Assembly: GCA_948528155.1 (NCBI GenBank)
Contig: CAOSZT010000002.1
Coordinates: 1-38,427 of the forward strand
DNA: 38,427 nt
DNA from: an uncultured Clostridia bacterium
Lineage (GTDB): Bacteria > Bacillota > Clostridia > TANB77 > CAG-508
Direction: 5' to 3'
Part shown: positions 15,606 through 15,697 of the stretch, piece after piece
Layout: each line of letters opens with the position of its first letter
How positions within the stretch are numbered: position 1 is the first letter of the stretch
Made by a program: the position numbers and the translations under genes
Notes under the pieces: model-generated
What the model saw: the letters and a program-made list of their open reading frames with translations, nothing else
Told to the model about the DNA's origin: nothing
Database searches by the model: none

Positions 15606-15631
15606 ATTAGTATGAAAAAGTGTAGGCGAGA

Positions 15632-15674
15632 AAGAAAGCGTTCAGATAGAGCAGTCTGAAAGGCTTTCTTTTTT
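15632..15674 (+). terminator. leader hairpin plus T-tract between promoter cassette 2 and the adhesin gene
   Basis: AAGAAAGC-G-TTCAGA / TCTGAA-AG-GCTTTCTT (8 + 6 bp helices) running into TTTTTT. AGGAGG RBS lies 17 nt downstream. Confidence 0.7.
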
Positions 15675-15697
15675 GTTTCACTAATTACAAAGGAGGA

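What the first reader, a model, noticed from the sequence alone, without database searches (positions are those of the whole stretch)
15606..15697. Leader terminators after three of the four cassettes point to attenuation or antitermination control, or a family of short leader RNAs
Cassettes 1, 2 and 3 are each followed, 30-45 nt after the -10, by a purine-rich/pyrimidine-rich hairpin running into a T-tract (3807..3846, 15632..15674, 26950..26983). The RBS of the first gene lies just beyond. Leaders 1 and 2 also share their 5' part (ATTAGTATGAAAAAnTGTAGG). By default transcription would end in RNAs of about 45-65 nt. The adhesin, surface and anti-defence arrays would need an antiterminator or structure switch to be expressed. 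Terminator-based control of conjugation operons is known in Gram-positive elements. This leader family and its partner protein are not ones I recognise. The tandem SpoVG protein encoded right after leader 3 is a candidate RNA/DNA binder.
Basis: partly seen in the sequence, partly recalled or inferred. Interest (0 to 1): 0.62.

Follow-up and report, generated by a model that had tools for sequence, protein, structure and literature searches.

The report
Conserved leader terminators behind ICE promoters
Three operons of a mobile element from an uncultured gut Clostridium each begin with the same promoter followed at once by a transcription stop signal; this arrangement is conserved in about a hundred related elements, so these genes are probably expressed only when something overrides the stop.

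Summary
Cassettes 1-3 (TTGCAA-N5-TTGCAA operator-like repeat plus an extended -10) are each followed by a hairpin directly abutting a run of six T: 3809-3840/T 3841-3846, 15634-15668/T 15669-15674, 26948-26977/T 26978-26983. Cassette 4, before xis-int, has none. Transcripts would end 46-63 nt from the predicted start.

These are not chance hairpins. Among 107 unique cassettes from gut Clostridia MAGs and metagenomes, 54 carry such a terminator in the same slot. Presence follows the downstream gene class strictly: six classes have it and the xis/int classes never do. Hairpin sequences differ between classes but the structure is kept. By a strict count, 112 of 195 cassettes have one against about 0.4 expected. 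Almost no terminator lies upstream of a cassette.

The terminator always forms in silico, so a leader RNA switch is rejected, and a leader peptide is not conserved. Read-through must come from leakage or from a trans-acting or processive antiterminator. No known antiterminator family is encoded in the window, and SpoVG as partner has no support. RNA data are too thin to measure termination. This is a new architectural variant of the terminator-gating logic known from Tn916 and pLS20.

The parts
3725..3780 (+). Cassette 1. Operator-like TTGCAA-N5-TTGCAA (3725-3741), CTGCAG-GTATAC, and an extended -10 (TG 3772-3773, TAAAAT 3775-3780). Predicted start A3787.
   Evidence: TGnTAnnnT is invariant at a fixed offset in all 107 unique cassettes
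3806..3846 (+). Leader terminator 1. Stem 3809-3840 (13 bp, GAAA loop), extendable to 3806-3843. T-run 3841-3846. Predicted RNA end about +60.
   Evidence: class G1 orthologues keep it
15550..15605 (+). Cassette 2. Extended -10 TG-C-TAGAAT, with the hexamer at 15600-15605. Predicted start A15612.
15606..15697 (+). Leader 2, the finding's own coordinates. Conserved 5' part, terminator stem 15634-15668 (13 bp; extended stem from about 15627), T-run 15669-15674, SD AAGGAGG 15690-15696.
   Evidence: class G2 has 4 compensatory pairs
26876..26931 (+). Cassette 3. Extended -10 TG-T-TAATAT, with the hexamer at 26926-26931. Predicted start A26938.
26948..26983 (+). Leader terminator 3. 11-bp stem 26948-26977 and T-run 26978-26983. 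Predicted RNA end about +46.
   Evidence: (flagged by the tool's own terminator scan)
36663..36718 (+). Cassette 4 in front of xis (36783-37031) and int (37036-38307). No terminator in its leader.
   Evidence: all class B1 orthologues also lack one
3865..4896 (+). First gene behind terminator 1: a secreted or membrane protein with no Pfam family. It opens an operon running to about 15528 that includes PAPS_reduct, DarA_C and sortase genes.
15698..19090 (+). First gene behind terminator 2: a TED/SpaA-domain LPxTG adhesin. It is followed by ArdC-like, nucleotidyltransferase and LPD11 genes.
27011..27637 (+). First gene behind terminator 3: a tandem SpoVG-domain protein.
   Evidence: (PF04026, two stretches)
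26508..26858 (+). XRE-family HTH protein encoded immediately upstream of cassette 3. A candidate binder of the TTGCAA-N5-TTGCAA repeat; this is inference only.
   Evidence: an XRE gene also precedes class G4 cassettes
2688..3473 (+). 261-aa early protein (the ORF as listed starts at 2664). Receiver-like N-domain plus a helical C-part. It sits beside a divergent HTH gene (2269-2511, minus strand). A candidate regulator of unknown function.
19095..19129 (+). Hairpin (dG -16.7) after the adhesin gene with a poor T-tract. An internal weak terminator or stabiliser.
38305..38328 (+). Terminator after int, at the end of the transcription unit (dG -7.9). It is weaker than the leader hairpins.

Best explanation
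The three hairpins are genuine promoter-proximal intrinsic terminators. They form a fixed module: operator-like repeat, extended -10 promoter, terminator, ribosome-binding site. An integrative conjugative element (ICE) of uncultured gut Clostridia uses this module at four operon junctions. Three are in the window; the fourth, in relatives, precedes the ParB/relaxase transfer operon.

No other terminator lies at these junctions. Each hairpin therefore ends the transcript of the operon upstream. By default it also truncates transcripts that start at its own cassette after 46-63 nt.

The leader has no room for an alternative RNA fold. Expression of the downstream adhesin, surface, anti-restriction and SpoVG operons must therefore depend on something acting in trans or carried by the polymerase. 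I consider a processive antitermination step most likely. Either a factor is loaded at the conserved cassette (Q-like logic), or a cis-acting RNA is carried by long transcripts from an upstream promoter (Tn916 canT or pLS20 conAn logic). The xis-int cassette escapes this gate because it has no terminator.

Shown: the structure, its position, its conservation, its enrichment and the absence of an RNA switch. Inferred: that termination is efficient, that cassettes fire rightwards from the predicted starts, and that an antiterminator exists.
For: - Hairpin directly abutting T6 in all three leaders; dG -11.7 to -24.7 kcal/mol.
- 54 of 107 unique cassette leaders (112 of 195 counted redundantly) carry a >=9-bp hairpin abutting a T5-T10 run in one 41-nt slot. 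The expectation is about 0.002 per slot. Only 1 terminator lies within 500 nt upstream of any cassette.
- Presence is strictly tied to the downstream gene class. Six classes always have it; the xis/int and other classes never do.
- Hairpin sequences are unrelated between classes, yet stem and T-run are kept. Within-class compensatory changes occur in G1 (1 pair), G2 (4 pairs) and G6 (2 pairs).
- Terminator pairing probability is about 1 with 0-250 nt of upstream RNA.
- The leader hairpins are as strong as or stronger than the terminator after int.
- The right end has Tn916-like gene order: a sigma70_r4-like protein, a small ORF, xis and int. In Tn916, terminators T1-T3 are overcome by the cis-acting antiterminator canT (PMC11658703). 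pLS20 uses conAn (PMC8191782).
- Downstream genes are nevertheless transcribed in gut metatranscriptomes. One contig (15629-15892) spans terminator 2.
Against: - No antiterminator was identified. No window ORF matches Q, NusG/KOW, ANTAR, CAT_RBD or ConAn1 (PF17362) families.
- The 261-aa early protein gave no significant structural match.
- The noncoding gap where canT would lie by analogy is a decayed serpin-like gene, not a conserved RNA.
- Termination efficiency is unmeasured. The RNA data are sparse assembled contigs without ends.
- A cis-RNA model makes the cassette promoters upstream of each terminator look futile.
- Leaky constitutive termination would explain the same sequence features.
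Confidence: 0.5

Rival explanations
1. Junction terminators or insulators with constitutive leak. The hairpins mainly end the upstream operon and block read-in from host or neighbouring transcription, as Tn916 T1 does. They merely damp the output of the strong cassette promoter by a fixed factor. No dedicated antiterminator exists.
For: - They are the only terminators at the operon junctions.
- In classes G5 and G6 the cassette follows co-directional genes that look unrelated to the element.
- Terminator-bearing cassettes have near-consensus -10 hexamers (TAAAAT, TAGAAT). Terminator-less ones have weaker hexamers (TATACT, TAAAGT, TACAGT).
- No antiterminator family was found.
- Downstream genes are transcribed at low level in vivo.
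Against: A pure insulator would work equally well upstream of the promoter. Yet 112 terminators lie downstream of cassettes and only 1 lies within 500 nt upstream. This implies selection for terminating cassette-initiated transcripts. U6-U10 runs abutting 9-15-bp stems predict efficient rather than marginal termination.
Confidence: 0.3
2. The 46-63-nt terminated transcripts are themselves the functional product, a family of small RNAs. Downstream genes are driven by other promoters or by leak.
For: - Hairpin plus U-tail is the usual 3' module of bacterial small RNAs.
- In class G6 the terminator is followed by about 85 nt carrying a second promoter-like TGTAAATATAAT before the first ORF.
- The 5' 10-20 nt are conserved across classes (AUSAAAWAUU).
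Against: - In the window the SD of the first gene follows the T-run by only 8-15 nt, leaving no room for another promoter.
- The body of the RNA (the hairpin) differs completely between classes, so there is no shared seed.
- No target was identified and there is no Rfam match.
Confidence: 0.08
3. A classical attenuator with an RNA switch. This could be a riboswitch, a leader peptide, a zipper type or a counter-transcript type, where an alternative fold removes the terminator.
For: Such attenuators precede conjugation operons of pLS20-family plasmids (PMC13401043). Leaders 1 and 2 contain an ATG-initiated mini-ORF.
Against: - Only 10-24 nt precede the hairpin.
- Terminator base pairs have probability about 1 in every context tested.
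- The ATG is ATC in orthologues and has no SD.
- No Rfam family matched.
Confidence: 0.03
4. The hairpins are mRNA-stabilising or processing structures, or protein-binding sites (for example for the tandem SpoVG protein), rather than terminators.
For: They would sit near the 5' end of the downstream mRNA and at the 3' end of the upstream mRNA. SpoVG proteins are reported nucleic-acid binders (own knowledge).
Against: - An uninterrupted T5-T10 run abuts the stem in all 44 unique leaders analysed. Stability or binding alone does not require this.
- The hairpins begin at +10 to +24, not at the very 5' end.
- The SpoVG gene is itself behind terminator 3, and it is absent from the smaller elements of classes G5 and G6, which still have leader terminators.
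Confidence: 0.05

Closest known systems
Tn916 terminators T1/T2/T3 with the cis-acting antiterminator RNA canT (Wirachman & Grossman 2024, PMC11658703)
   Same: - A Gram-positive ICE with xis-int at the right end, preceded by a sigma70_r4-like gene and a small ORF.
- Intrinsic terminators placed in front of transfer and accessory operons keep genes silent unless transcription is made terminator-resistant.
- The terminators also act as insulators against read-in.
   Different: - In Tn916 one promoter (Porf7) plus a 452-nt RNA serves all terminators. Here each terminator has its own conserved promoter only 10-24 nt upstream.
- No canT-like conserved RNA was found between the orf8-like gene and xis. 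That gap is a gene remnant.
- There is no sequence similarity.
pLS20 conAn bipartite processive antitermination and the zipper-type leader attenuator cATT (PMC8191782, PMC13401043, PMC10325885)
   Same: A conjugative element of Firmicutes in which terminators in and before operons suppress spurious transcription, with an antitermination system allowing full expression.
   Different: - conAn needs ConAn1 (PF17362) and a 260-600-nt RNA. Neither was detected in the window.
- The zipper attenuator lies in a 456-nt leader with mutually exclusive folds. These leaders are 46-63 nt long with a single fold.
Lambdoid late-gene control: PR' promoter, terminator tR' and Q protein (own knowledge); the Q21-like BrrG of the Bartonella gene transfer agent (bioRxiv 10.1101/2024.11.20.624540)
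   Same: A promoter gives a short terminated RNA by default. The antiterminator is recruited through DNA at the promoter, so no long leader RNA is needed. This fits a conserved DNA cassette directly upstream of a promoter-proximal terminator, and one factor could serve several copies.
   Different: - No Q-family protein was recognised by sequence.
- Only one candidate was modelled, and it did not resemble Q21.
- A sigma-dependent pause element could not be tested.
- In lambda there is one late promoter, not four or more modules.
Generic Rho-independent terminators of low-GC Firmicutes
   Same: A stem of 9-15 bp, a loop of 3-11 nt, and a U5-U10 run directly after the stem, often with an A-rich stretch before it.
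   Different: The position is inside a 5' leader 10-24 nt from the start, rather than after a stop codon. The site recurs behind a repeated promoter cassette.

Membership tests
Intrinsic (Rho-independent) terminator | Stable stem-loop immediately followed by a U-rich tract | tested here: met
   All three leaders have 11-13 bp core stems, dG -11.7 to -14.2 (extended up to -24.7), and a T6 run with no gap. The same holds in 44 of 44 unique homologous leaders.
Intrinsic (Rho-independent) terminator | Causes RNA polymerase to release the transcript | not testable with these tools
   Only assembled RNA contigs are available, with no 3'-end data.
RNA-switch attenuator (riboswitch, T-box, zipper cATT, counter-transcript) | Mutually exclusive antiterminator and terminator folds in the leader | tested here: not met
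   Terminator pair probabilities are 0.73-1.0, and mostly 1.0, with 0-250 nt of upstream RNA. There is no Rfam hit.
Leader-peptide attenuator (trp type; Tn916 orf12-tetM type) | Conserved translated mini-ORF overlapping the terminator | tested here: not met
   The ATG at 3787-3789 and 15612-15614 has no SD. It is ATC in G1, G3, G5 and G6 orthologues.
conAn processive antitermination (pLS20) | ConAn1 protein (Pfam PF17362) plus a 260-600-nt conAn2 RNA at the operon start | tested here: not met
   No PF17362 hit in the 52 window ORFs of 60 aa or more, or in the ORFs after a class G4 cassette. The leaders are too short. The part of the element upstream of the window was not fully examined.
Tn916-type canT antitermination | Conserved roughly 450-nt cis-acting RNA between the orf8-like gene and xis | tested here: inconclusive
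   The gap 35825-36315 exists. Its only conserved part (35891-36083) aligns with the 3' end of a serpin-like ORF that is intact in other loci. No RNA model of canT was available for comparison.
Q-type antitermination (lambda, 82, 21) | Q-family protein encoded by the element | tested here: not met
   No Pfam, NCBIfam or PHROG Q family was hit. The modelled 261-aa protein has no significant PDB match. Other small ORFs were not modelled.
Q-type antitermination (lambda, 82, 21) | Binding site in promoter DNA and a sigma-dependent promoter-proximal pause before a nearby terminator | not testable with these tools
   A conserved cassette and a conserved TAnTAT hexamer just after the -10 are present in all terminator-bearing classes. 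Pausing and binding need experiments.
ANTAR / BglG-type RNA-binding antitermination | ANTAR or CAT_RBD protein and a dual-hairpin or RAT element overlapping the terminator's 5' arm | tested here: not met
   No such domain was found. There is no second hairpin upstream of the terminator. EutV appears only as an insignificant fold hit (E about 0.1, TM 0.26).

The most novel reading that the evidence does not exclude
The cassette-plus-terminator modules form a regulon for an unrecognised antitermination system of Firmicutes mobile elements. One possibility is a promoter-loaded, Q-like protein encoded by the ICE, for example the receiver-like 261-aa early protein or another uncharacterised ORF. 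The other is the roughly 165-nt structured leader RNA of the upstream class-B4 cassette acting processively in cis. Either would switch four operons on together, while the default products are 46-63-nt RNAs.
Probability: 0.25. Interest if true: 0.75.

Novelty: new variant of a known kind. Interest (0 to 1): 0.5.

Why it matters
Terminator and antiterminator gating has only recently been recognised as central to ICE and conjugative-plasmid biology (Tn916 in 2024; pLS20 in 2021-2026). This family is widespread in human, mouse, rabbit and ruminant gut Clostridia that have no cultured model. It shows a different layout: a repeated operator-promoter-terminator module in front of the transfer, adhesin, surface and anti-restriction operons.

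If a dedicated factor overrides these terminators, it would be a new antitermination system. It would also offer a single control point for transfer of these elements. If no such factor exists, the modules are a clean natural example of combined junction terminators and attenuators. The module is short and well defined, so the question is directly testable with reporters.

Tried and rejected
1. Rfam scan of the whole window at E<=1: only a chance miRNA hit. No tRNA or tmRNA.
2. Plasmid collection searches with 6 kb around leader 2 and with cassette 1: no match. Viral contigs scanned for the cassette pattern: none.
3. Alternative RNA folds. Folding with 0-250 nt of upstream RNA never displaced the terminator.
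4. Leader peptide: not conserved.
5. canT-like RNA in the 491-nt gap 35825-36315. The conserved core is a serpin-like gene remnant.
6. Known antiterminator protein families were sought in all ORFs of 60 aa or more with Pfam, and in ten regulatory candidates with NCBIfam and PHROGs: none found.
7. Structure of the 261-aa early protein. It has a receiver-like N-domain but no significant PDB fold match. EutV (ANTAR) appears only at E about 0.1.
8. RNA evidence. The 'metatranscriptomic WXS' runs X25 and X26 behave like DNA: flat depth, with contigs breaking at the repeated cassette. True RNA-seq runs give only scattered low-depth contigs. No raw-read run was available, so transcript ends could not be read.
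9. A first terminator scanner of my own timed out and was rewritten.
10. The MAFFT alignment of class G3 leaders was out of register, so its pair counts are not used.
11. I considered a minus-strand promoter reading of the cassette (TTAACA-16-TATACT). I kept the plus-strand reading because TGnTAnnnT is invariant in all classes and every cassette faces a gene with an SD.

Full report
**What is in the window**

The window has 23-25% G+C and strong purine skew on the + strand. All long ORFs but one are on the + strand. It ends with an HTH_17 excisionase-like gene (36783-37031) and a tyrosine integrase (37036-38307).

The gene content is that of the accessory half of a Gram-positive integrative conjugative element:
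- a PAPS-reductase-like protein, a DarA_C protein and a sortase;
- a TED/SpaA LPxTG adhesin;
- ArdC-N plus a zincin peptidase, a nucleotidyltransferase and an LPD11 protein;
- an orphan N6/N4 DNA methylase;
- an XRE regulator, a tandem SpoVG protein and a sigma70_r4-like protein.

No conjugation machinery lies in the window. The window is part of a 73-kb MAG contig, and the element continues upstream through a type I restriction-modification system and a further cassette.

**The cassettes**

Four copies of a roughly 80-nt cassette occur at 3725, 15550, 26876 and 36663, with none expected by chance. Each cassette has three parts:
- TTGCAAAAAC(C/G)TTGCAAAAT, which is a palindromic hexamer repeated at 11-bp spacing. 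It can also be read as the inverted repeat TTTTGCAA-N5-TTGCAAAA;
- CTGCAG-GTATAC;
- at a fixed offset, an extended -10 (TGnTAnnnT).

I take the cassette to be an operator plus a sigma-A-type promoter firing rightwards, with a predicted start at offset 62 (A3787, A15612, A26938). This orientation is inferred, for two reasons. TGnTAnnnT is invariant in all 107 unique copies. Every copy also faces a gene with a Shine-Dalgarno sequence.

**Checking the observation**

| Leader | Core stem | dG (kcal/mol) | T-run | Predicted RNA length |
|---|---|---|---|---|
| 1 | 3809-3840 | -13.6 (-17.4 extended) | 3841-3846 | 60 nt |
| 2 | 15634-15668 | -14.2 (to -24.7 extended) | 15669-15674 | 63 nt |
| 3 | 26948-26977 | -11.7 | 26978-26983 | 46 nt |

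In each leader the run of six T directly abuts the stem. The Shine-Dalgarno sequence follows 8-15 nt later. Cassette 4 has no hairpin.

A scan of my own for hairpin-plus-T-run sites found only six convincing ones on the + strand of the whole window. Three are the leader sites. The others are one after the adhesin gene (19095-19129), one after the sigma70_r4-like gene (35513-35549) and one after int (38305-38328). No terminator lies between the end of any upstream gene and the next cassette.

**Comparative evidence**

The cassette core pattern was searched in the species-representative genome collection and in metagenome contigs. This returned 190 loci, all from uncultured gut Clostridia MAGs or gut metagenomes of human, mouse, rabbit and ruminants. 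There are often five to seven copies per contig, all in one orientation. None was found in viral contigs or plasmids.

Of the 107 unique cassette-plus-leader sequences, 54 have a hairpin abutting a T-run in the same slot. Presence is perfectly tied to the gene that follows.

Classes that always have the terminator:
- G1: secreted protein, as at cassette 1.
- G2: adhesin, as at cassette 2.
- G3: tandem SpoVG, as at cassette 3.
- G4: a ParB_N protein followed by a relaxase-like protein. This cassette is preceded by receiver-domain and XRE genes.
- G5: a RepA_N-like protein plus a serine recombinase.
- G6: serine-recombinase elements.

Classes that never have it:
- B1: xis-int, as at cassette 4.
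- B2: another HTH_17 protein plus a tyrosine integrase.
- B3.
- B4: a long structured leader.

In 44 unique leaders the stems are 9-15 bp, dG is -8.2 to -17.5, the T-run is 5-10 nt with no gap, and the RNA end falls at +42 to +63.

Between classes the hairpin sequences are unrelated: GAGAGCUAAUUAGAG.., GAAGCUAUUCAGA.., GGAGAAAGG.., GAAAGCGAGAG.., GCAAGGG.., GCAGAAGUCAG... The architecture is the same in all of them. Within classes the few substitutions are conservative or compensatory: G1 has 1 pair, G2 has 4 pairs and G6 has 2 pairs with both sides changed.

I also made a strict count over 1.33 Mb of cassette-strand sequence. It found 112 leader terminators at 195 cassettes and 69 such sites everywhere else. 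This corresponds to an expectation of about 0.002 per 41-nt slot. Only one terminator lay within 500 nt upstream of any cassette. The feature is therefore under selection, both for its form and for its position downstream of the promoter.

**What it is not**

- No Rfam family matches.
- The leader cannot switch. Only 10-24 nt precede the stem. The terminator base pairs have probability about 1 whether the RNA begins at the predicted start or 60-250 nt upstream, that is, for read-through transcripts from the previous operon.
- The mini-ORFs in leaders 1 and 2 (MKNCR*, MKKCRRERKRSDRAV*) lack a Shine-Dalgarno sequence. Their ATG is ATC in orthologues.
- A stabiliser-only role does not explain the invariant T-run.

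**How it most likely works**

Two consequences follow directly from the anatomy. First, the hairpin is the only terminator at the junction, so it must end the upstream operon's RNA. Second, it lies downstream of the promoter, so it must also act on cassette-initiated transcripts. An insulator alone could sit on either side of the promoter. The 112-to-1 asymmetry therefore argues that truncating cassette transcripts is part of the function.

Relief cannot be encoded in the leader RNA. It must therefore be leak, or a factor that alters the polymerase or blocks hairpin formation. Two models have precedent.

- A promoter-loaded protein, following the logic of lambda Q. A Q21-like factor was recently recognised only by its fold in the Bartonella gene transfer agent (bioRxiv 10.1101/2024.11.20.624540). 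This model fits a conserved DNA cassette directly before a promoter-proximal terminator and allows one factor to serve all copies.
- A cis-acting processive RNA carried by long transcripts, as with Tn916 canT (PMC11658703) or pLS20 conAn2 (PMC8191782). This model fits the Tn916-like right end of the element. It also fits the terminator-less xis-int cassette.

I searched for partners and found no positive evidence.
- No known antiterminator family is encoded in the window. ConAn1 is PF17362, and it was not hit.
- The gap where canT would lie is a serpin-like gene remnant.
- The 261-aa early protein next to the divergent HTH gene has a receiver-like N-domain and a helical C-part, with no significant structural neighbour.
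- One lead arose outside the window. The class-B4 cassette, 10.6 kb upstream of cassette 1, has a roughly 165-nt leader with a 26-bp closing stem. Ten homologues keep this stem through compensatory changes, and it has no Rfam match. It could be a cis-acting RNA element. This is untested.

**Expression data**

Only assembled contigs of public runs were available. Two '454 metatranscriptomic' runs behave like DNA. True RNA-seq runs from mouse gut give scattered low-depth fragments over genes behind all three terminators. Examples are 5382-5541, 7307-7741, 16108-16271, 27057-27610 and 29481-29725. One fragment starts 13 nt after the predicted start of cassette 4 (36738-36898).

One contig of an ambiguously labelled library runs from 15629 to 15892. 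It starts 17 nt after the predicted start of cassette 2, crosses terminator 2 and enters the adhesin gene.

Termination is therefore not absolute in vivo. Its efficiency and regulation cannot be judged from these data. RNAs of 46-63 nt would in any case be lost from such libraries.

**Verdict**

- Default termination is a sound inference.
- An RNA structure switch is rejected.
- A trans-acting or processive antiterminator is the most likely mechanism, but it is unproven.
- The SpoVG proposal has no support.

In kind, this belongs with the terminator-gating systems of Tn916 and pLS20. Its architecture is new: a repeated operator-promoter-terminator module with a very short leader and no recognisable antiterminator.

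Noticed in passing
window 3725-3762, 15550-15587, 26876-26913, 36663-36700; loci L001-L190: The cassette core TTTTGCAA-N5-TTGCAAAA is a perfect inverted repeat centred about -54 from the predicted start. CTGCAG and GTATAC follow it. 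It looks like the operator of a dimeric HTH protein. It occurs in more than 190 loci, all from gut Clostridia MAGs or metagenomes, in front of genes of several element types (tyrosine- and serine-recombinase elements). None occurs in viral contigs or plasmids.
   Followed up: partly
L191:413-650 (same contig, about 10.6 kb upstream of window 3725): A fifth cassette (class B4) has no terminator. Its roughly 165-nt leader has a 26-bp closing stem that ten homologues keep through compensatory changes, and it has no Rfam match. It is a candidate cis-acting RNA, possibly an antiterminator.
   Followed up: partly
window 35499-35549: A degenerate half-cassette (TTGAAAATACTGCAGTTTATA) overlaps a perfect 17-bp palindrome followed by T7. 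It sits just after the sigma70_r4-like gene and before an extended -10 (TGATATAAT, about 35588-35596). It could be an operator or a long-stem terminator.
   Followed up: no
window 35891-36083: The conserved part of the 491-nt 'noncoding' gap aligns with the 3' end of a serpin-like ORF that is intact in other loci (for example L045:3529-4674). In the window it is a decayed gene fragment.
   Followed up: yes
window 11566-12148: The sortase appears split into two overlapping ORFs: 11566-11901 with the signal or TM part, and 11882-12148 with the Pfam Sortase C-terminal part. This is either a frameshift or a programmed shift. The same split is called in the MAG contigs (L191, L192).
   Followed up: no
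window 19095-19129: A strong hairpin (dG -16.7) lies directly after the adhesin stop codon with only a poor T-tract. It may be a partial terminator or a 3' stabiliser that sets the ratio of adhesin to downstream anti-restriction genes.
   Followed up: no
window 2239-2663: The only minus-strand gene (2269-2511, an XRE-like HTH with a PHROG repressor hit) faces the 261-aa receiver-like gene across a region with two near-consensus sigma-70-type promoters (2542-2571, 2597-2625). The layout resembles a phage-like genetic switch inside the element.
   Followed up: partly
class G6 loci, e.g. L001, L008, L045: The leader terminator is flanked by a perfect 10-nt complement (CAAATATTAT ... ATAATATTTG) that would enclose it in a longer stem. 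A second promoter-like TGTAAATATAAT follows before the recombinase operon.
   Followed up: no
window 3750-3777, 26901-26928 (minus strand): The cassette also reads as a good sigma-70-type promoter on the minus strand (TTAACA-16-TATACT, 10 of 12 matches), because GTATAC and TGnTA are nearly symmetric. Divergent or antisense initiation cannot be excluded.
   Followed up: no
L192:4037-4078 (contig CARLIP010000024.1): A run of N followed by Illumina adapter sequence (CACTCTTTCCCTACACGACGCTCTTCCGATCT) is embedded in the cassette of this public MAG contig. This is an assembly artefact at the repeat.
   Followed up: no
window 15646-15651: The tip of terminator 2 is a hexaloop AGAGCA, with A at position 1 and G at position 4 as in ANTAR-bound loops (own knowledge). 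The motif AGAGCAG is invariant in class G2 while the basal stem covaries. No ANTAR protein was found.
   Followed up: partly
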